64,000 nt of DNA from an uncultured Candidatus Saccharibacteria bacterium (GTDB lineage Bacteria; Patescibacteriota; Minisyncoccia; Phycocordibacterales; GCA-2401445), in NCBI GenBank assembly GCA_964436015.1, contig CAYTAR010000003.1, forward strand, positions 16,678-80,677, given 5' to 3'. Made by a program: the position numbers and the translations under genes. Positions within the stretch are counted from its first letter, which is position 1, and every line of letters starts with the position of its first letter. Of this stretch, positions 930 through 54,979 are shown piece after piece. The notes beneath the pieces were generated by a model, which was not told where the DNA came from, searched no databases, and saw nothing but the letters and a program-made list of their open reading frames with translations.

Positions 930-986
930 TGAGTAGGCTAGATTATTTTTGATCGGACTCATACATGTCTGTGGTATTATTTACCT

Positions 987-4060: not shown

Positions 4061-4099
4061 AGACGGAAGGCTAAAAACTTTCCGTCTTTTTTTTATTTT
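4061..4099 (+). terminator. Rho-independent terminator
   Basis: AGACGGAA / TTCCGTCT stem, 11-nt loop, then a T run of 12. Confidence 0.7.
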
Positions 4100-4113
4100 G
4101 CTAGTATAAAGTA

Positions 4114-5290: not shown

Positions 5291-5321
5291 ATCCTGCCGA
5301 GGTCCGACCTCGGCAGAAATT
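5291..5321. repeat. 33-bp palindromic repeat, copy 2 (aatcCTGCCGAGGTCcGACCTCGGCAGaaatt)
   Basis: Identical to 1741..1771 except for the central base. Lies upstream (minus-strand sense) of the precursor promoter. Confidence 0.8.
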
Positions 5322-5424: not shown

Positions 5425-5697
5425 ATGAATGACACGACGTGGTACATTCACCCCGGTGGGTGCGTAACGACCAATCGCCTTCTCGCGGAACGTCTTCCGC
5501 AAGAAGATGCCTGTCCACAGAAGCTCTGTGCTGATGGTGTTCTGCGGGACCTTTGGAAGTGCGACCATGCGGTGGTTACTGAATTCACTCGCGCTCGGAA
5601 ACAACTCTCCCTTAATTTCAAAGTGTTTGTGCAGGAGGGGCAGGGGCCGGTGCGCCTGTGGAAGTTTGAAGAGAAGAAGCAAGCAACGAAGGTGTGA
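5425..5697 (+). CDS. small GC-rich Cys-containing hypothetical protein
   Basis: 90 aa. AAGGA ribosome-binding site, an upstream TTGACT-17 nt-TATTGT promoter (5351-5379) and a strong downstream terminator. GC content is clearly above its surroundings and several frames are open across it. Confidence 0.4.
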   Translation: MNDTTWYIHPGGCVTTNRLLAERLPQEDACPQKLCADGVLRDLWKCDHAVVTEFTRARKQLSLNFKVFVQEGQGPVRLWKFEEKKQATKV

Positions 5698-5714
5698 CAT
5701 TCGTTGTTTGAAAA

Positions 5715-5750
5715 CACAACACGCGGACCGTAGGTCCGCGTGTTTTTCTT
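5715..5750 (+). terminator. Rho-independent terminator
   Basis: ACGCGGACC..GGTCCGCGT stem followed by TTTTTCTT. Confidence 0.7.
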
Positions 5751-13427: not shown

Positions 13428-13460
13428 TTGTGTTACGTAGGTACGTGGTATACTTTTTTT

Positions 13461-19657: not shown

Positions 19658-20064
19658 ATACTTATTTTAACACAGATGAGGGTATTTTGGGTCGGAAATG
19701 AGTATTTATGGTCTTTTTGCTTTAATATTAGCGGAATTTACTTACTTTGTTTGATTAAATGTAAGGGCTTGACAAATTAGCATATTGTGTGCTATAATGA
19801 GTTCTGAACTGTAAATTGTCATGAAGAAGATAAAACTAACCATAACCATTGGGGTTGTCGCGTGTATCGTGACAACCTTCCTCATTATGGGCTCTGTTCA
19901 GAAAACGGCGCCCCAACCTCAACAACAGGAACCGAACGAAGAAGTGGTGAGTGTGGTGGAGGCCGAACAGACTCGGCCTCAGACCATTGAACTCACGATC
20001 AACCCAGTGTTGGAGTAAATCAAAATCAACAACTCAAACTCAGTCAAGGCAGAAAGACAAACTT

Positions 20065-21048
20065 ATGAAAAAAATTCTTGTTTTGTTCACTCTTCTAATC
20101 GTCGTTTTCACGCCAGTGCTGGCGAACGCACAGGTTCAGAATCTGGGCATGATCAGCTCGAAGGATGCTCTGCGCACATATGCGCTGGAACAGGCGGTGA
20201 ATGTGGATGTTGGGGCAAGTACCCACATCACGGGTGGAAGTCATAAGCGTGTTCGCTTGTCGAGTCCTACCGCCCGTGGGATAGAGGAGACCATCCGGTC
20301 TACTCAATTGGCACTGCAGGTGGTGAATCCGGACGACTGGATTTGGTTGTACGCGAGCGTCGTTAACTTTGAAGGAGAACAACTGTTCTATGGATATACG
20401 CACTTTGTGCTTGAATCCAAGAACGGGATGTACATTCTCCCCAAAGGATACGGGGACATGAAAGTGCGGTTAAGCGACAACATACCAATCCGGTATGACG
20501 ACGCGGAGTGGGCACAGGTGAATGTTCTGGCGGAGAATGGGAGTACCCAGTACAGCATGACGCTCTCCGTTCAGGGGGGGAAGATTTATTTTCCTACGCA
20601 CCTCGCCGGCACGAGCGCCATCGTTCAAGTTTCAACGTCGTCCAGTGGAATGCACTACTGGGGTACTGAAGACGGAAGACGTCTTCATTCTGGAAAGTAT
20701 GACCTTTCCATCAATGCGATGGTTGACGGAGTCGTCACTGTTGAAGATGAAAACTTCAACCTTGAGATTGAAACTCACGGTGGAGTTGGACAAAATGTCA
20801 CGGTGGAATTTGTTTCCACGGAGAAATCAATTTTCCACGCTGCGTTCCATACGAGCGAGGGGAAATGGTTCAAGAGTGTCCTTGTCAGAAAAGCCGGCAC
20901 CAGTAACTGGGTACGGTATCCAGTCAGAGTGACTCCTGAGTGGACATTTGCCAACATTGGCATGCAGGCCGGGGTGTACTACCTCATCCCGGAATGGGAA
21001 GAGGAGGATTTGAGGGAGAACCCTTACTATCCTGGTGGAAAAGGCTAA
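20065..21048 (+). CDS. secreted hypothetical protein
   Basis: About 327 aa from MKKILVLFTLLIVVFTPVLANA (signal peptide). Confidence 0.5.
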   Translation: MKKILVLFTLLIVVFTPVLANAQVQNLGMISSKDALRTYALEQAVNVDVGASTHITGGSHKRVRLSSPTARGIEETIRSTQLALQVVNPDDWIWLYASVVNFEGEQLFYGYTHFVLESKNGMYILPKGYGDMKVRLSDNIPIRYDDAEWAQVNVLAENGSTQYSMTLSVQGGKIYFPTHLAGTSAIVQVSTSSSGMHYWGTEDGRRLHSGKYDLSINAMVDGVVTVEDENFNLEIETHGGVGQNVTVEFVSTEKSIFHAAFHTSEGKWFKSVLVRKAGTSNWVRYPVRVTPEWTFANIGMQAGVYYLIPEWEEEDLRENPYYPGGKG

Positions 21049-21069
21049 AGTAGCCGAAAATAATTCACA

Positions 21070-21102
21070 AAGCGCGAGAACATAAATTCTCGCGCTTTTT
21101 TT
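21070..21102 (+). terminator. Rho-independent terminator
   Basis: AAGCGCGAGAA-cataaa-TTCTCGCGCTTTTTTTT. Confidence 0.8.
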
Positions 21103-21144
21103 GTGGGTAAAATTTGTACATATGATATATTTGAGTGCATATAT

Positions 21145-22629
21145 ATGAAGAAAAAAGTAATTGTAATTGGTGCAGGTCCAGGCGGATTGTCATCAGCGAT
21201 GTTGCTCGCAAGTAGAGGGTTTGATGTTACCGTGTACGAGAAACAGAATTATGTTGGCGGAAGAACATCTGCTTTGAAGGCAGGAGAATTTACATTTGAA
21301 CTTGGTCCAACGTTTGTAATGTTGCCCCAGGCATTTGAAGAAGTGTTTAGTCTCACTGGACGAAAACTTTCTGATTATCTCGATATGAAATTGATTGATC
21401 CGCTGTACCGGCTTCGTTTTGGAGACGGAAGAGATTTTCGTGTGCATTTTGATAAAGATAAACTGTCGCAGGAAATTGCACGGATATTCCCTGGGGATGA
21501 GGTTGGGTATGCAAAGTATCTACGTGATCAAAAAGTGAAGTTTGAGAAAATGTACCCGTGTCTAAAAATTTCATACAACAAGTGGTACAGCTACTTAAAT
21601 CCGAAACTTCTGAAGGCATTTCCATACATGGATAATTTTAGAACACTTCATGATGTGATGCGTAAGTATTTTACGCATGAAGACATGATGATTTCAATGA
21701 CGTTCCAGGCAAAGTACCTTGGTATGTCGCCGTGGCAGTGTCCTGGTGCGTTTTCCATTTTGTCGTACATTGAGCATCAGTTTGGAATTTTCCATCCCAT
21801 TGGAGGAGTGCATAAAATACCCGAGGCGATGGCAAAGGTTGTGATAGAGGAGGGAGGGAAAATTAATTTGGGTTCACCAGTAAAGAGGATTTGTGTTGAG
21901 GGTGGCCGAGTATCAGGAGTGGAACGTAACGACGGAGTCATTGATGAGGCGGATATTGTCATTATGAATGCTGACTTTGCGTTGGGAATGAAGCAGATGG
22001 TACCGGAGGAATACCGAAAGAGTTGGAATGATGCGAAGATTGATAAGAGTCCGCTTTCGTGTTCAACATTTATGATCTACCTTGGATTAAAGAAGATGTA
22101 TAACTTTGAGCACCACAATATTTTCTTTGCATCTGATTACAAGAAGAATATTGAGGAGATTTTTGAGGATATGAAACTTCCTGAAGATCCTTCATTTTAT
22201 ATTCAAAATGCGTCCGTTACTGATCCGACACTCGCTCCTCAGGGCAAGTCTGCAGTATACGTACTCGTGCCCGTGCCTAACCTGCGAGCGGGAGTTGATT
22301 GGAATGTAGAGAAGAAACGGTACCGAGATTTAGTTATGAAAAAGATAGCAGAGCGTACTGAGATGAGTGATATTGAGAGTCAGATTGAAGAGGAGCGTGT
22401 GATCACTCCCTTAGATTGGGAGCAGAGTATGGGTATATACAAAGGTGCAGTGTTTAACCTCGCGCACACCTTGGGACAAATGCTCTACTTGCGGCCCCAT
22501 AATCGTTTCGAGGAACTCCCAGGACTCTTTATTGTGGGTGGAGGAACACACCCGGGGAGTGGATTGCCAACTATTCTTGAGTCAGGGCGAATTGCTGCTG
22601 ATTTAATTTCTGAAGAATATTCTCCGTGA
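21145..22629 (+). CDS. FAD-dependent oxidoreductase, phytoene desaturase (CrtI)-like family
   Basis: About 494 aa. N-terminal KKVIVIGAGPGGLSSA...YEK Rossmann dinucleotide-binding motif. C-terminal GGGTHPGSG, typical of the CrtI/amine-oxidase family. Confidence 0.75.
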   Translation: MKKKVIVIGAGPGGLSSAMLLASRGFDVTVYEKQNYVGGRTSALKAGEFTFELGPTFVMLPQAFEEVFSLTGRKLSDYLDMKLIDPLYRLRFGDGRDFRVHFDKDKLSQEIARIFPGDEVGYAKYLRDQKVKFEKMYPCLKISYNKWYSYLNPKLLKAFPYMDNFRTLHDVMRKYFTHEDMMISMTFQAKYLGMSPWQCPGAFSILSYIEHQFGIFHPIGGVHKIPEAMAKVVIEEGGKINLGSPVKRICVEGGRVSGVERNDGVIDEADIVIMNADFALGMKQMVPEEYRKSWNDAKIDKSPLSCSTFMIYLGLKKMYNFEHHNIFFASDYKKNIEEIFEDMKLPEDPSFYIQNASVTDPTLAPQGKSAVYVLVPVPNLRAGVDWNVEKKRYRDLVMKKIAERTEMSDIESQIEEERVITPLDWEQSMGIYKGAVFNLAHTLGQMLYLRPHNRFEELPGLFIVGGGTHPGSGLPTILESGRIAADLISEEYSP

Positions 22630-23834
22630 GTATCTTTGATTCTTTGTGGTTCATATGGGAGCTTTACTGGAAGAAAGGCCTTCCTGATATTAAACGTATC
22701 CAGTCACTCGGATTATTGGCAGTAAAAATTGGACAAATGCACGCGCTCAGGCTTGATTTTTTGAGTAGGGAAAAGTGTGAAGAACTTTCCAAATTGTACC
22801 GAAGTAATGTACCGGTGGCGCAGGAAGATATTGAAGTGCTCATTGAAAATGCGGGCGGAAAGGATTTTAAAAAGAATTTTTCACAGATTGATAAAACTCC
22901 GCTTGCAGTTGCGTCAGTGGGACAGGTGTATCGTGCACAGCTCAACAGCGGAGCTCCTGTGGTAATTAAAGTATTGAAGACGTCTTTCAAGAAGCGTTTT
23001 GTTGCGGATGTTGCTCGGGTCCGACGTTTTTTTTCGCTGGTTCTATTTTTCAGACCAAAACTCAACAGTGTAGGTAACCCCATGGGTATCTTGAATGATA
23101 TTGAAGAGTATACACTCGCGGAATTGGATTTGCGCAACGAAGCACGCGGACGTGAAGAATTGTTTGCGGTGTACGAAAAATACAAAAATGACTTTGACCT
23201 TTCCATGCTCACATTTGTACGGGAGTACCCTGAGCTCTCAGGAGAAAATTTGTTGGTTTCTGAGTATGTGTCTGCGCCGACAGTAGATGAGCTTTTGCAG
23301 GAAGGGAAATTTACCTATGATGACATGCTCAAACTTTTTTACATTCAAGGGTTTTATATCTTTATTGCAGGCAAGTTCCATGGTGATATGCATCCTGCGA
23401 ATGTGCTCTATGATGGTAAGAAGTTTTACTTTGTTGACACTGCGTTTGTTGGGGTTGTGGGAGACCGGATACGGAAGGGTCTGTTTCATTTTTTTGAAGC
23501 ACTTTCACAGTATGACTACCCTGCGTGTGCCCGCTATTTGAACGAAATGGCAGAGGAGGGTATTTCTGGAGAGAGGTTTAAGAAATTTGAACAGGAGTTT
23601 GTGGCATTGTATGCAAACTATACACACAGCACGGTCTCCGAGGTGTCGCTGACATCACAGATGATGCGGACGATAAAACTGGGTGTACTTTCAGGTATGA
23701 AGTTTGAAAAGGGTATTTTCGCGATTATCCGTAGCCTCATGTACCTTGATGGTATGGTGCTCGCGTGTAACCCGAATGCAATTTTAATGGAGGATATGCG
23801 TCAGTTCATTGATGCATACAAACGTGCGGTGTAA
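22626..23834 (+). CDS. ABC1/UbiB (AarF)-family atypical protein kinase
   Basis: 402 aa. VIKVLK and FHGDMHPANVLY motifs. Its start overlaps the preceding stop codon. Confidence 0.7.
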   Translation: MSIFDSLWFIWELYWKKGLPDIKRIQSLGLLAVKIGQMHALRLDFLSREKCEELSKLYRSNVPVAQEDIEVLIENAGGKDFKKNFSQIDKTPLAVASVGQVYRAQLNSGAPVVIKVLKTSFKKRFVADVARVRRFFSLVLFFRPKLNSVGNPMGILNDIEEYTLAELDLRNEARGREELFAVYEKYKNDFDLSMLTFVREYPELSGENLLVSEYVSAPTVDELLQEGKFTYDDMLKLFYIQGFYIFIAGKFHGDMHPANVLYDGKKFYFVDTAFVGVVGDRIRKGLFHFFEALSQYDYPACARYLNEMAEEGISGERFKKFEQEFVALYANYTHSTVSEVSLTSQMMRTIKLGVLSGMKFEKGIFAIIRSLMYLDGMVLACNPNAILMEDMRQFIDAYKRAV

Positions 23835-23844
23835 ATTAAAAGGT

Positions 23845-24240
23845 ATGTACAAGAGCGGGGTAGTGTTTGGGGTATTTGATCTTTTCCATTCTGGACACCA
23901 GTACTTTCTTACTCAATCACGTTCCAAATGTGAAAAATTGATCGTGGTTGTAACACCTGATTCTATTGTGCGTGAGTTTAAGGGAAAAGATCCAATAGAC
24001 TCTTTTGAAAAAAGAATGCGAGCAGTTCAAGAGTTTGGAAATGATTATGTCGTGGTGGCGGGTGACAGTCATGCGGGTTCGTGGAATATCTTTTCACTGT
24101 ATCCACCAGATGTGGTTTTTTTAGGTTATGATCAACAAGGGATAGCTAGTGAACTTGAGAAACTACATGTTCCATATGTATACATTGATGCATACAAGAA
24201 AGAGCAGTATAAGACGTCAAAACTTCGCGGGCTAACATAG
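23845..24240 (+). CDS. cytidylyltransferase-like (HxGH nucleotidyltransferase) protein
   Basis: 131 aa. GVFDLFHSGH motif. Size and layout resemble TagD/FAD-synthase-type adenylyl- or cytidylyltransferases. Confidence 0.6.
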   Translation: MYKSGVVFGVFDLFHSGHQYFLTQSRSKCEKLIVVVTPDSIVREFKGKDPIDSFEKRMRAVQEFGNDYVVVAGDSHAGSWNIFSLYPPDVVFLGYDQQGIASELEKLHVPYVYIDAYKKEQYKTSKLRGLT

Positions 24241-24301
24241 TCTGTAATAGTTTTTGAGTAGAGAGTATTGACACAGGGTGGTTTTTTGTTATGCTGACTT
24301 T

Positions 24302-24521
24302 AGGTAGTAACGTGGTCGAAAGTCTATTACGTCAGATCATGTTCGGCGGCATACTGTCTGCCGTTATACACGACACATGAGCAAATCCACGACGGGGGTT
24401 CTAGTATCCCTTACCTCCTAGATTTGTTAGGCGATAGATGGCCTGTGTTTGAGGCAACAGAACTGGCCCTACACGTTCAACTACACCACTTGTCGCACAG
24501 GGCGACAAGTGGTATTTTTTT
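24302..24521 (+). ncRNA. candidate structured ncRNA 1 (unclassified)
   Basis: Own promoter (TTGACA 24268-24273, extended -10 TGtTATGCT to 24295) and own terminator (CCACTTGTCGC...GCGACAAGTGG plus T8 at 24486-24521). Intergenic, with no convincing ORF. Confidence 0.4.
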
Positions 24522-24652
24522 GCCTAACTTTTTGCTCTGTCAAAAACACATTGTGTTTACAGTATAGTTATATTTTGAGCCATTGATTCCCCCAAGGTTT
24601 AACCTTGGGGGAATTAGCTTGACAGTAGTGTGGACTGTGGTATACTACTCAT

Positions 24653-24910
24653 CAGTGAAGTGTTGTTCTTAAAACCCCTATCAGCCTTGCGTTGCGTCAC
24701 GCATTATCCTATGACGCATCGGCATTGCGCCGATATTGTGCGGCCAAACTCCGTGAGCACATCTGGGTTGGTGAGAGCTCACATTCTGCCAAATACCGGC
24801 CGCCGGAAAGGCAACGACGGGGCATTGGTCATAGAGGCTGACCAGTTCTGGACAATACTGTTGTTCACTAACTCCGCTTACGTACATTTGTGCGTAAGCG
24901 GTTTTTATTT
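24653..24910 (+). ncRNA. candidate structured ncRNA 2 or long regulatory leader (unclassified)
   Basis: Promoter TTGACA-16 nt-TATACT (24619-24646). GC-richer body. Terminator CCGCTTACG...CGTAAGCGG plus T run (24874-24910) lies about 20 nt before the next ATG. The only ORF crossing it reads through the terminator hairpin. Confidence 0.4.
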
Positions 24911-24929
24911 TGCATGATACAATAATGAT

Positions 24930-25262
24930 ATGAAAAAAATCTATCTGACTCTTTCTATTCTAGGTATTGTGTTGCCGTACACACAGTTTGTTCAGTGGAC
25001 AAATATGTATGGTTTTAATATTTCAGGGATGGTGCGTGACATGTTTGCAAATGGTATAGCGTCAGGTATCGCGCTCGATGCACTTATGACTGCGGTGGTC
25101 ATATTGGTCTTTGTACTTCATGAGCAAAAACGTCTTGCTGTCTCCTACGTATGGGTTCCACTTGTCGGTTTATTTCTCTCGGGTATCGCGTTTGCACTTC
25201 CGTGTTATTTGTACTTGCGTGAGAGCGCACTCGAGAAGAAATCTCAAGTAACCAGTATATAA
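24930..25262 (+). CDS. small integral membrane protein
   Basis: 110 aa with 3-4 predicted TM helices. Confidence 0.5.
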   Translation: MKKIYLTLSILGIVLPYTQFVQWTNMYGFNISGMVRDMFANGIASGIALDALMTAVVILVFVLHEQKRLAVSYVWVPLVGLFLSGIAFALPCYLYLRESALEKKSQVTSI

Positions 25263-36948: not shown

Positions 36949-36978
36949 AAAAATACCAAAAATGCTATTCTAGATACC

Positions 36979-43609: not shown

Positions 43610-43927
43610 TGTGTGCGCATGTGGGTTTTGGTTATCAACAGGGGGAGGTTGTGGGGTTTTTTACTTTTTGTATACTAATTATGTAGATTCATTTTTACAC
43701 AGTTCTTTCGGAAGGTGTCATTACTTTCCAGTTGTACCGAGACTTTCAGTCTCACACCAATTTCCGGCCTCGCATTATGTGGGGCCGTTTTCTTTTCCCC
43801 AACGTTCCGTATAACTCCGTGGTAAGATATATCTCCCCAAATATGTTGTATTAACCAGTAAACGACCCACACATACTTTTACAAGTACTTGTTTGTGTAG
43901 GTCGTTTTCTATTTGTGGGAACACTAT

Positions 43928-47373: not shown

Positions 47374-49056
47374 ATGTGGCAGTGGTATACTGAGTGTATG
47401 AAATCACGTTTTTTTACGCGACCTATTTTTTATATTCCACTACTCATGGTGTTTGTGGTGGGTATTATTGTATTCACTCAGCGTAATAATGAGTTGTTGC
47501 ATGAGACAGAGGTTGTAGCCCGCGGGACAATTCGAGAAGAAGTTACGTTGACTGGAAGAGTGGTTCCATCACAAAAGGTAGAGCTTGCATTCGAACGTGC
47601 GGGGAGGGTCTCACGTATATATGGTGACGTGGGTGATACTTTTCCCGCACAAGCTCTGATTGCAGAACTTGATTATCAAGATATATCAGCACAACTTCTT
47701 CAAGCGAATGCTAATGTGTCCGTTGAACGTTCACGATTAGAAGAATTATTGCGGGGATTGAGACCGGAAGAACGTGAGTCACAGGAGACTCGTGTGCGTA
47801 ATGCTGAGCGAACTCTTTCTATAGCGGAAGAAAAACAGATAACAGTTTTTGATAAAACAAAGCGAGATATGGAAGGGGTATATATTGATGCGTTGGCTAC
47901 AGTTAAGAATGCTGCTGTTGCAGGAAAAGACGTGCTTCTTAAGGCAACCGAGATTCAGTATCTGTATTTTAATTCTTATTCAACTGCGGATTCTGACCTT
48001 GCGTACATGAAGGAAGAGGCGGTTCGTTTGCTGTTTAGTGTATCTGGGGCGGGAAGGTGGAGCGTGGATGCGCTAAGTATTCTTGATGGGGGTGTATACG
48101 GTAACGCATTTAAGATTACACCAGATAATGAGGAGTCTGTTGAAGAGGCACTTAAACACACGCAGGAGGCCTTGTTGCGTATACGATTGTTTGTTACCAG
48201 TATTCCCGTTAATACCCTTTTTAGTGATACTGAAAAGACTACCATGTCTACACTGAGGTCAGTTGCAGAAACACATGTAGAGAGCATCGCAAACGCAATG
48301 CAACGAATAAAAGCACAGCGTATTGCAAATGAAAATGCGCTTGCCATCGCACGTGCCGAGGTTACCTCTGCTCAAAACGCTCTTGAAGTAGCACGAAGTG
48401 ACCGTACGGTTGCTACTGCAGGAACCGCAGATGAGCAGGTGCGTGCACAAGAGTCTCGTGTTGAATCGGCGTTGGCGAATGTCGCCAATCTTTCTGCGCA
48501 GATAGAGAAAATGGTTATACGTGCTCCATTTGAGGGAACGCTCACAAAGAATGATGCAGTGTTGGGAGAAATCATATCACCCCATACTCCATATTTTGGA
48601 ATGATTGGTACAGATATATTTCAAATTGAAGCGTATATCCCTGAAGCTGATATTGCAAAAGTAGCTCTTGGGAATACCGCTCGCGTTACGTTTGATGCAT
48701 ACGGCCGTGATGAATTTTTTAATGCAACACTTACTAGTATTGCTCCCGCAGAAACAATTATAGACGGTGTGGCAACGTATAAGATCACACTCAAGTTCAT
48801 TGAACCGGATGAACGAATTCGTTCAGGAATGACGACAAATATAGATATTATTACTGCTGAGAAAAGTGACGTATTCTCGGTACCGCTTCGCTCTGTTGTG
48901 CGTCAGAACGACCGACGGTTTGTTCGTGTGCTAGGTCCACAAAATGAAATTGAAGAAGTGGAGGTTACAACGGGACTCCGTGGAATCGATGGAAGAATTG
49001 AGATTATCTCTGGTTTAGTGGGAGGGGAACGCGTCGTGACATATTTTATTGAATAG
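47374..49056 (+). CDS. HlyD/MacA-type periplasmic adaptor (membrane fusion protein)
   Basis: 560 aa. N-terminal TM helix, biotin-lipoyl-like and long coiled-coil, VIRAPFEGTL beta-barrel. Confidence 0.75.
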   Translation: MWQWYTECMKSRFFTRPIFYIPLLMVFVVGIIVFTQRNNELLHETEVVARGTIREEVTLTGRVVPSQKVELAFERAGRVSRIYGDVGDTFPAQALIAELDYQDISAQLLQANANVSVERSRLEELLRGLRPEERESQETRVRNAERTLSIAEEKQITVFDKTKRDMEGVYIDALATVKNAAVAGKDVLLKATEIQYLYFNSYSTADSDLAYMKEEAVRLLFSVSGAGRWSVDALSILDGGVYGNAFKITPDNEESVEEALKHTQEALLRIRLFVTSIPVNTLFSDTEKTTMSTLRSVAETHVESIANAMQRIKAQRIANENALAIARAEVTSAQNALEVARSDRTVATAGTADEQVRAQESRVESALANVANLSAQIEKMVIRAPFEGTLTKNDAVLGEIISPHTPYFGMIGTDIFQIEAYIPEADIAKVALGNTARVTFDAYGRDEFFNATLTSIAPAETIIDGVATYKITLKFIEPDERIRSGMTTNIDIITAEKSDVFSVPLRSVVRQNDRRFVRVLGPQNEIEEVEVTTGLRGIDGRIEIISGLVGGERVVTYFIE

Positions 49057-54908: not shown

Positions 54909-54979
54909 CGGGCTGTAGTACAGTGGTAGTATTTGCCCATGGGGTGGGTAAGACCCGAGTTCAATTCTCGGCAGCCCGA
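54909..54979 (+). tRNA. tRNA-Pro (anticodon GGG by hand fold)
   Basis: Cloverleaf folded by hand. Acceptor CGGGCTG/CAGCCCG has the C1:G72 pair and A73 diagnostic of bacterial tRNA-Pro. Anticodon stem TGCCC/GGGTA with loop AT-GGG-GT. T-arm CCGAG-TTCAATT-CTCGG. CCA is not encoded. Confidence 0.7.

What the first reader, a model, noticed from the sequence alone, without database searches (positions are those of the whole stretch)
24268..24915. Two tandem promoter-to-terminator units without credible ORFs: candidate structured ncRNAs or a riboswitch-like leader
Unit 1 (about 24302..24521) and unit 2 (about 24653..24910) each have a near-consensus sigma-70 promoter and a strong intrinsic terminator. 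Both have GC content above the local average, and their only ORFs read through the terminator hairpins. The unit 2 terminator ends about 20 nt before a small membrane-protein gene, as in a transcription-attenuating riboswitch. I could not match either to RNase P, SRP, tmRNA, 6S or common riboswitch consensus sequences by eye. A perfect 11-bp hairpin (ttcccccaagg-ttta-ccttgggggaa, 24588..24614) separates the two units.
Basis: seen in the sequence. Interest (0 to 1): 0.5.

Follow-up and report, generated by a model that had tools for sequence, protein, structure and literature searches.

The report
Two orphan small RNA genes
Two neighbouring stretches in a small uncultured (CPR/Patescibacteria-type) bacterial genome each look like a short non-coding RNA gene with its own strong promoter and terminator, but they match no known RNA family, have no detectable relatives anywhere searched, and do not appear to be a riboswitch for the gene downstream.

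Summary
Two near-consensus sigma-70 promoters with TG-extended -10 boxes (24268-24295 and 24619-24646) are each followed by a strong intrinsic terminator (24485-24513 and 24874-24901). Only three such promoters occur in the 64 kb window. The stretch has no credible ORF and is GC-rich for an intergenic region.

No Rfam family, tRNA or tmRNA matches. The 95-aa ORF has no credible homologue among 1.84 billion representative proteins.

The riboswitch-leader reading is not supported:
- The DUF2834 gene has its own extended -10 box (TGATACAAT, 24915-24923) 6 nt before its ATG. Seven other genes in the window share this leaderless layout.
- Neither terminator has an alternative antiterminator pairing.
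- In 11 related loci, DUF2834 or its operon partners lie next to each other with no RNA insert.

Without the terminators the RNA bodies fold little better than shuffled sequence (z = -1.1 and -1.9). Sequence searches, covariance-model searches and pattern scans found no homologue, so covariation cannot be tested. Resemblances to RNase P motifs fail the P4 pairing test and are at chance level.

Best reading: two lineage-specific, independently transcribed small RNAs of unknown, probably trans-acting, function. Interest is modest.

The parts
24268..24295 (+). Promoter of unit 1: -35 TTGACA, 16-nt spacer, TG-extended -10 TATGCT
   Evidence: One of only three sites in the window with at least 10 of 12 matches plus a TG extension.
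24302..24521 (+). Unit 1 transcript: about 183-nt body plus terminator. The 5' end is inferred from the -10 box, not mapped.
   Evidence: The 5' strand (24304-24314) pairs with 24472-24484 just before the terminator. Body GC 0.49. Body folding z = -1.08.
24485..24521 (+). Intrinsic terminator 1: 12-bp stem, 5-nt loop, T7 run
   Evidence: -21.3 kcal/mol, z = -8.1. No antiterminator partner.
24586..24614 (.). Perfect 14+14 nt palindrome that ends 4 nt before the -35 box of unit 2. It has no T-run and its role is unknown (possibly a protein-binding site or insulating hairpin).
   Evidence: -25.2 kcal/mol. Unique in the window. No match in viral contigs.
24619..24646 (+). Promoter of unit 2: -35 TTGACA, 16-nt spacer, TG-extended -10 TATACT
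   Evidence: TGGTATACT is the same 9-mer found before other genes in the window.
24653..24911 (+). Unit 2 transcript: about 221-nt body plus terminator. The 5' end is inferred.
   Evidence: A long closing helix (24654-24668 with 24850-24869) encloses several hairpins. Body GC 0.52. Body folding z = -1.94.
24874..24911 (+). Intrinsic terminator 2: 12-bp stem, 4-nt loop, T5AT4 run
   Evidence: -20.3 kcal/mol, z = -6.8. No antiterminator partner.
24915..24923 (+). Extended -10 box TGATACAAT, 6 nt before the DUF2834 ATG: the gene's own promoter, giving a leaderless mRNA (inferred)
   Evidence: Eight cases of this spacing at starts of long ORFs, against about 2.6 expected.
24930..25262 (+). DUF2834 small membrane protein gene. 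Context only; not part of the RNA units.
   Evidence: Pfam PF11196, E = 5e-26. Homologues in relatives have no RNA leader.
23845..24240 (+). Cytidylyltransferase-like gene, the last gene of the upstream operon. Context only.
   Evidence: Pfam PF01467. In the closest relative (L009) the homologue also follows ABC1, but without the RNA units.

Best explanation
The 689-nt gene-free stretch holds two separate small non-coding RNA genes. Each is transcribed from its own strong sigma-70-type promoter with an extended -10 box. Each ends at its own constitutive intrinsic terminator. The predicted RNAs are roughly 200-220 nt (unit 1) and 250-260 nt (unit 2).

The units are lineage-specific insertions into an otherwise conserved operon (amine-oxidase-like gene, ABC1 kinase, optionally a cytidylyltransferase, then DUF2834). 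They most likely act in trans as free RNAs, by base-pairing or by binding a protein. They probably do not regulate the neighbouring gene in cis.

Shown: the transcription signals, the lack of coding potential, the absence from known families and the absence from relatives. Inferred: that the units are transcribed, that they are functional and that they act in trans.
For: - Promoters and terminators: two of the only three promoters of this quality in the 128 kb of both strands lie 190-230 nt upstream of two of the strongest terminators.
- Composition: this is one of the longest gene-free stretches in the window, and the RNA bodies are GC-rich for non-coding DNA.
- No coding signal: every ORF runs through a terminator. 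The 95-aa ORF has no Pfam match. Its only hit among 1.84 billion representative proteins is a single spurious-looking E = 1e-4 match to a 1142-aa protein. Six-frame translations find nothing in the relatives' loci or the rest of the window.
- Constitutive terminators: the 5' arm of each terminator stays unpaired when the 3' arm is removed.
- The downstream gene has its own leaderless promoter.
- Relatives show ABC1 directly followed by DUF2834, or ABC1 followed by the cytidylyltransferase, with no RNA units.
Against: - No expression data exist.
- No homologue was found, so there is no covariation and no evidence of selection.
- The RNA bodies fold only marginally better than shuffles, and the reverse strands fold equally well.
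- No target stands out among the 60 gene starts of the window.
- The searches of large collections could use only exact patterns. Homologues at moderate divergence elsewhere in relatives' genomes would have been missed.
Confidence: 0.55

Rival explanations
1. Unit 2, or units 1 and 2 in tandem, is a cis-acting leader of the DUF2834 gene. A riboswitch or attenuator would control read-through of terminator 2.
For: The architecture is promoter, then about 220 nt of GC-rich RNA with a long closing helix, then a terminator, then a gene 18-28 nt later on the same strand.
Against: - The gap holds an extended -10 box 6 nt before the ATG, like seven other leaderless genes in the window.
- There is no Shine-Dalgarno sequence before the ATG for internal initiation.
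- There is no antiterminator alternative.
- No Rfam riboswitch matches, even at E up to 10.
- DUF2834 homologues in seven loci have no leader.
- Unit 1 is followed by no gene at all.
Confidence: 0.08
2. One unit is a highly diverged housekeeping RNA of this lineage that Rfam models miss, such as a miniaturised RNase P RNA or a 6S RNA. This is documented for RNase P RNA in CPR bacteria.
For: - Lui et al. 2021 (PMC8172020) found that 10 of 35 complete CPR genomes had RNase P RNAs below Rfam thresholds, some with helices missing.
- Unit 1 has GAAAGUC just after its 5' closing strand. It also has ACAGAAC, then 8 nt and an A, directly before its 3' closing strand. This is the position of the conserved J2/4-P4 region in E. 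coli M1 RNA.
- Unit 2 contains AAACUCC and GCCAAAUA, which also occur in M1 RNA.
- Strong promoters and sizes of about 185-220 nt would suit 6S RNA.
Against: - Neither unit gives any RNase P, 6S, SRP or tmRNA hit when scanned alone at E up to 10. ARAGORN finds nothing.
- The 8 nt after ACAGAA (CUGGCCCU) have no complementary partner after GAAAGUC, so helix P4 cannot form (read from the sequence).
- The universally conserved CR-I and CR-IV positions, as I recall that consensus, are only partly met.
- The shared heptamers are at the number expected by chance (about 4-5 for these lengths; my own estimate, not a tool result), and in unit 2 they are out of order.
- Local alignment to M1 RNA is not significant: 61 of 300 shuffles match or beat it for unit 1, and 158 of 300 for unit 2.
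- The covariance model of unit 1 does not hit E. coli rnpB.
- The predicted folds are branched, not the rod with a central bubble typical of 6S RNA.
Confidence: 0.1
3. The units are transcribed or transcribable DNA with no selected function. They could be remnants of acquired or decaying DNA that happen to retain promoter and terminator signals, or insulating elements.
For: - They are absent from every relative examined, and no homologue was found anywhere searched.
- Body folding is not clearly better than shuffles.
- The locus is variable between relatives.
Against: - Two near-consensus promoters, each paired with a strong terminator at an RNA-gene-like distance, are unlikely to persist by chance in a small compact genome.
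- No trace of a former protein gene or mobile element was found.
- GC content is raised, as in bona fide RNA genes.
Confidence: 0.17
4. A unit encodes a very small peptide. An example is the 22-codon GTG ORF at 24312-24380 in unit 1 (VVESLLRQIMFGGILSAVIHDT), which would make it a type I toxin-like mRNA.
For: A short, partly hydrophobic ORF lies near the 5' end of unit 1, with an AGG 6-7 nt upstream.
Against: - The hydrophobic stretch is only about 11 residues.
- No antisense partner or overlapping promoter is present.
- This genome seems to favour leaderless AUG starts, and neither unit begins with AUG.
- No homologues were found.
Confidence: 0.05

Closest known systems
Free-standing bacterial small RNA genes with a sigma-70 promoter and a Rho-independent terminator (the generic class of trans-acting sRNAs)
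   Same: Own promoter, 200-260 nt non-coding transcript, strong intrinsic terminator with a U-tract, intergenic location, narrow phylogenetic range.
   Different: No expression data, no identified target or seed region, and no known RNA chaperone context in CPR bacteria. The two genes are unrelated in sequence yet sit side by side.
Transcription-attenuating riboswitch leaders
   Same: For unit 2: promoter, about 220 nt of GC-rich RNA closed by a long helix, a terminator, then a gene on the same strand about 20 nt later.
   Different: No antiterminator and no Rfam aptamer match. The downstream gene has its own leaderless promoter. There is no conservation upstream of DUF2834 homologues.
Diverged RNase P RNAs of CPR bacteria (Lui et al. 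2021, PMC8172020) and the minimal type T RNase P RNA of Thermoproteaceae
   Same: The host belongs to a group in which RNase P RNA is often missed by Rfam. Unit 1 has 5' and 3' ends paired like P1, and has GAAAGUC and ACAGAAC motifs at roughly the expected places.
   Different: P4 cannot be formed, the other conserved regions are incomplete, there is no covariance-model hit, and the similarity to E. coli M1 RNA is at chance level.
6S RNA
   Same: Size range, strong promoter and paired ends.
   Different: The predicted folds are multibranched rather than a rod with a large central bubble, and no Rfam 6S hit was found.

Membership tests
Free-standing sRNA gene (promoter to intrinsic terminator, non-coding) | Own promoter upstream of the RNA | tested here: met
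   Near-consensus extended -10 promoters at 24268-24295 and 24619-24646. Sequence evidence only; start sites are not mapped.
Free-standing sRNA gene (promoter to intrinsic terminator, non-coding) | Own Rho-independent terminator at the 3' end | tested here: met
   12-bp GC-rich stems followed by U-tracts.
Free-standing sRNA gene (promoter to intrinsic terminator, non-coding) | No translated ORF | tested here: met
   ORFs run through the terminators and have no Pfam match. The 95-aa ORF, the only one searched, has just one weak hit (E = 1e-4) among 1.84 billion representative proteins. Six-frame tblastn is negative.
Free-standing sRNA gene (promoter to intrinsic terminator, non-coding) | A discrete transcript is detected | not testable with these tools
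   No RNA-seq data are available.
Riboswitch or transcription attenuator | Mutually exclusive terminator and antiterminator structures | tested here: not met
   With the 3' arm removed, the 5' arm of each terminator stays unpaired in the minimum-energy fold. The best upstream duplexes are only 7 bp for terminator 2 (-10.8 kcal/mol) and 10 bp with a break for terminator 1 (-13.1 kcal/mol).
Riboswitch or transcription attenuator | The downstream gene depends on the leader's promoter | tested here: not met
   TGATACAAT lies 6 nt before the ATG at 24930. The same layout is found at seven other genes in the window, 8 in total against about 2.6 expected. Inferred from sequence.
Riboswitch or transcription attenuator | A conserved aptamer upstream of homologous genes, or a match to a known aptamer class | tested here: not met
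   No Rfam hit. DUF2834 homologues have no leader. Model R1 finds nothing in 15 loci.
Bacterial RNase P RNA (type A) | Helix P4 formed between the conserved region CR-I strand (GAAAGUC...) and the strand after ACAGAA | tested here: not met
   The strand CUGGCCCU after ACAGAA has no complement after GAAAGUC in unit 1 (sequence inspection against E. coli M1 RNA).
Bacterial RNase P RNA (type A) | Match to the RF00010 or RF00011 covariance models | tested here: not met
   No hit at E up to 10 on each unit alone or on the whole region. Caveat: scores below about 10-15 bits would not be shown, and Lui et al. used a 5-bit threshold.
Bacterial RNase P RNA (type A) | Specificity-domain conserved regions CR-II and CR-III, in order | tested here: not met
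   Absent from unit 1. In unit 2, AAACUCC precedes GAGAGC, the reverse of the M1 order. The number of shared 7-mers is as expected by chance.
6S RNA | Rod-like fold with a large central bubble flanked by closing and terminal stems | tested here: not met
   The minimum-energy and centroid folds are multibranched. No Rfam 6S hit. Single-sequence folds are weak evidence.
tmRNA or tRNA | tRNA-like domain detectable by ARAGORN or Rfam | tested here: not met
   ARAGORN finds only tRNA-Pro at 54909. Rfam finds only that tRNA.
SRP RNA | Helix 8 motif recognised by the Rfam SRP models | tested here: not met
   No hit at E up to 10.

The most novel reading that the evidence does not exclude
One of the two units is this lineage's version of an essential RNA that has diverged beyond recognition. 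The most striking possibility is that unit 1 is a roughly 185-nt RNase P-like catalytic RNA lacking most canonical helices. A 6S-type RNA is the other possibility. Alternatively, unit 2 could be a new class of structured RNA specific to a poorly sampled CPR clade.
Probability: 0.07. Interest if true: 0.8.

Novelty: new member of a known kind. Interest (0 to 1): 0.3.

Why it matters
Small RNAs of CPR/Patescibacteria are essentially uncharted. These genomes are so compact that nearly 700 nt of gene-free DNA carrying two very strong promoters is unlikely to be idle. If the two RNAs are expressed, they would be among the first candidate regulatory or structural RNAs specific to such a lineage.

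The side observation may be more useful in practice. Many genes here seem to be transcribed as leaderless mRNAs from extended -10 promoters set 6 nt before the ATG. This affects how gene starts and "leaders" should be read in these genomes, and it explains why a terminator so close to a gene is not a riboswitch here.

As it stands the evidence is from a single sequence, so the finding is a lead rather than a discovery.

Tried and rejected
- **Rfam.** I ran gathering thresholds on the whole window. I also ran E up to 10 on the region and on each unit alone. Only junk came back (rli38, miRNA and snoRNA models hitting the hairpins).
- **ARAGORN** found nothing in the region.
- **RNase P idea.** I fetched E. 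coli rnpB and compared it. The alignments are not significant and P4 cannot form, so I rejected this as membership.
- **Paralogy of the two units.** Local alignment is at shuffle level. A 9-nt complementarity between them and the shared ACGACGGGG are at chance level, and the duplex energy equals that of shuffles.
- **Protein reading.** The 95-aa ORF has no Pfam match. The search of 1.84 billion representative proteins returned one weak hit, E = 1e-4. Six-frame tblastn found nothing.
- **Synteny route to orthologous intergenic regions.** I fetched DUF2834, cytidylyltransferase and ABC1 homologues with their contigs. None of the loci has the RNAs.
- **Sequence and model searches of those loci.** blastn and nhmmer covered the first nine loci. 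Single-sequence covariance models R1 and R2 covered all 15. The models hit only the sequences they were built from; the one other hit (8.4 bits, E about 1, inside the ABC1 gene) is noise.
- **Exact-pattern scans.**
  - Viral contigs, three scans: none.
  - Metagenomes, unit 1 21-mer: none.
  - Metagenomes, unit 2 19-mer: 15 hits, all random with unrelated flanks.
- **blastn against phage and plasmid collections:** no match.
- **Target search** against 60 gene starts in the window: nothing above the null.
- **Source contig.** It could not be looked up.

Full report
**What is in the sequence**

The stretch between a cytidylyltransferase-like gene (23845-24240) and a DUF2834 membrane-protein gene (24930-25262) is 689 nt long and has no credible ORF.

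It holds two sigma-70-type promoters, both with a TG extension before the -10 box:
- TTGACA, 16 nt, TATGCT at 24268-24295.
- TTGACA, 16 nt, TATACT at 24619-24646.

I scanned the whole window on both strands. Only three sites combine at least 10 of 12 consensus matches with the TG extension: these two, and a perfect 12 of 12 promoter at 19769 that heads the upstream operon.

Each promoter is followed by a canonical intrinsic terminator:
- 24485-24513, followed by T7: -21.3 kcal/mol, z = -8.1.
- 24874-24901, followed by T5AT4: -20.3 kcal/mol, z = -6.8.

A perfect 14+14 nt palindrome (24586-24614, -25.2 kcal/mol) lies between the units and ends 4 nt before the second -35 box. It is unique in the window.

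The RNA bodies have GC 0.49 and 0.52. The window is 0.42, and most intergenic regions are 0.23-0.40.

**Coding potential**

Every ORF in the stretch runs through a terminator hairpin, and each stop codon lies beyond the U-tract.

The 95-aa ORF at 24630-24917 has no Pfam match. A full HMMER search of 1.84 billion representative proteins returned only one weak hit, a repetitive-looking match at E = 1e-4 to a 1142-aa protein. Six-frame translations of the stretch match nothing in the related loci or in the rest of the window, so it is not a decayed gene.

**Known RNA families**

Rfam at gathering thresholds finds only tRNA-Pro at 54909. At E up to 10, on the region and on each unit alone, only chance hits to hairpin-like models appear. 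ARAGORN finds no tRNA or tmRNA here.

**How structured are they?**

The whole units fold with z = -4.3 and -3.9. This is mostly the terminator hairpins. The bodies alone give:
- Unit 1 (24302-24484): z = -1.08, with 34 of 200 shuffles folding as well.
- Unit 2 (24653-24873): z = -1.94, with 8 of 200 shuffles folding as well.

The reverse strands fold about as well. In both bodies the 5' end pairs with the segment just before the terminator. Unit 2 has a plausible multi-hairpin core. Single-sequence thermodynamics does not establish a special fold.

**Is unit 2 a leader of DUF2834?**

Three lines of evidence say no.

1. The 18-28 nt between terminator 2 and the ATG contain TGATACAAT (24915-24923), an extended -10 box ending exactly 6 nt before the ATG.
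   - The same arrangement precedes the starts of seven other long ORFs in the window. Six have 6-nt spacing (ATG at 987, 4114, 13461, 47398, 63874 on the minus strand, 19657 on the minus strand) and one has 7-nt spacing (36979).
   - That is eight cases against about 2.6 expected.
   - This points to widespread leaderless mRNAs in this organism and gives DUF2834 its own promoter. This step is inferred from sequence.
2. When the 3' arm of either terminator is removed, the 5' arm remains unpaired in the minimum-energy fold. No convincing antiterminator exists.
3. In relatives, DUF2834 follows the preceding gene directly:
   - Amine oxidase then DUF2834 in L001.
   - ABC1 then DUF2834, with a gap of only 4-12 nt, in L006 and L028-L030.
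   - No leader in L002 and L003.

**Relatives and homologues**

The ABC1 kinase's closest homologue (79% identity) is from a Candidatus Paceibacterota MAG (L009). Others, at 60-72%, come from Falkowbacteria, Parcubacteria-type and similar MAGs. The window therefore comes from a CPR/Patescibacteria bacterium.

The conserved arrangement is amine oxidase, ABC1, then DUF2834 or the cytidylyltransferase. In L009 the cytidylyltransferase follows ABC1, and an acidic 191-aa protein comes next. None of the 11 syntenic loci contains the RNA units.

None of the following found a homologue:
- blastn and nhmmer against the fetched loci.
- Single-sequence covariance models R1 and R2 against 15 loci and the whole window.
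- Three viral-contig pattern scans.
- Two metagenome pattern scans. One found nothing. The other gave 15 hits with unrelated flanks, about the random expectation.
- blastn against phages and plasmids.

The two units are not similar to each other.

**The RNase P lead**

CPR bacteria often have RNase P RNAs that Rfam misses (Lui et al. 2021, PMC8172020), so I examined some resemblances I noticed:
- Unit 1 has GAAAGUC after its 5' closing strand.
- Unit 1 has ACAGAAC, then 8 nt and an A, immediately before its 3' closing strand.
- Unit 2 has AAACUCC and GCCAAAUA.

I fetched the E. coli rnpB sequence and compared it with both units. The result is negative on every count:
- The strand after ACAGAA (CUGGCCCU) has no complement after GAAAGUC, so P4 cannot form.
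- The conserved CR-I and CR-IV positions, as I recall that consensus, are only partly met.
- The unit 2 motifs are out of order.
- The number of shared heptamers is what chance predicts for these lengths, about 4-5 by my own estimate.
- Local alignments are at shuffle level: 61 of 300 shuffles match or beat unit 1, and 158 of 300 match or beat unit 2.
- The unit 1 model does not hit rnpB.

I therefore do not file either unit as RNase P RNA. Very low-scoring similarity, below about 10-15 bits, could not be inspected with the tools available.

**Best reading**

These are two lineage-specific, independently transcribed small non-coding RNA genes. They are inserted between the cytidylyltransferase and DUF2834 genes of an ancestral operon. 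Each has a constitutive terminator.

They most likely act in trans. No target stands out among the 60 gene starts in the window, so the mechanism remains an inference. The palindrome next to the unit 2 promoter may be a protein-binding site or an insulating hairpin; this was not tested.

Confidence that these are stand-alone non-coding transcription units is fairly high. Confidence in any particular function is low.

**Rivals**
- cis-acting leader: about 0.08.
- Disguised housekeeping RNA: about 0.10.
- Non-functional remnant: about 0.17.
- Tiny peptide mRNA: about 0.05.

**Novelty and score**

These are orphan members of a familiar kind, promoter-to-terminator sRNA genes, in a group where such RNAs are unexplored. 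With no conservation, no expression data and only marginal folding support, interest is modest at 0.3.

The most useful by-product is the evidence for leaderless genes with extended -10 promoters. It explains the terminator-next-to-gene geometry that suggested a riboswitch.

Noticed in passing
window 972-986, 4099-4113, 13446-13460, 24915-24929, 36963-36978, 47383-47397, 63889-63875 (-), 19672-19658 (-): An extended -10 box (TGnTAnnnT) sits exactly 6 nt (once 7 nt) before the ATG of eight long ORFs, against about 2.6 expected. This suggests that many genes of this organism are transcribed as leaderless mRNAs. It also implies that the starts at 13428 and 47374 listed for two of these ORFs should be 13461 and 47398.
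   Followed up: partly
window 43669-43800 (+): A third small promoter-to-terminator unit: TTGTATACT, then about 110 nt forming three hairpins, the last a terminator (43765-43787 plus a T-run). Folding z = -5.2. No Rfam family (best hit suhB/mmgR at 21 bits, below threshold) and no credible ORF.
   Followed up: partly
window 19769-19798 (+): A perfect 12 of 12 sigma-70 promoter with TG extension (TTGACA, 18 nt, TGcTATAAT), about 150 nt upstream of the GTG start listed at 19951. It probably drives the operon 19951-24240 (unknown 365-aa protein, amine oxidase, ABC1 kinase, cytidylyltransferase). An ATG at about 19822 may mark an earlier start or a small ORF.
   Followed up: no
window 21103-25262; loci L001, L006, L009, L026-L031: Amine-oxidase-like gene, ABC1/UbiB kinase and DUF2834 form a conserved, tightly packed operon in many CPR relatives, often preceded by a YgaP-like membrane protein. 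Only this window and L009 have a small cytidylyltransferase after ABC1. This suggests a functional link between DUF2834 and this redox/kinase pair.
   Followed up: partly
window 24586-24614: A perfect 29-nt palindrome (ATTCCCCCAAGGTT-T-AACCTTGGGGGAAT) ends 4 nt before the -35 box of unit 2. It has no T-run and no other copy in the window or in viral contigs. It could be an operator or an insulating hairpin.
   Followed up: partly
window 5425-5750 (+) and 5293-5318: A small ORF of about 90 codons (5425-5697) is followed by a strong terminator (5718-5744). Upstream there is a GC-rich hairpin (cctgccgaggtccgacctcggcag). On the minus strand, an 11 of 12 promoter at 5198-5170 faces another small ORF. 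This is a compact region of small genes that was not examined.
   Followed up: no
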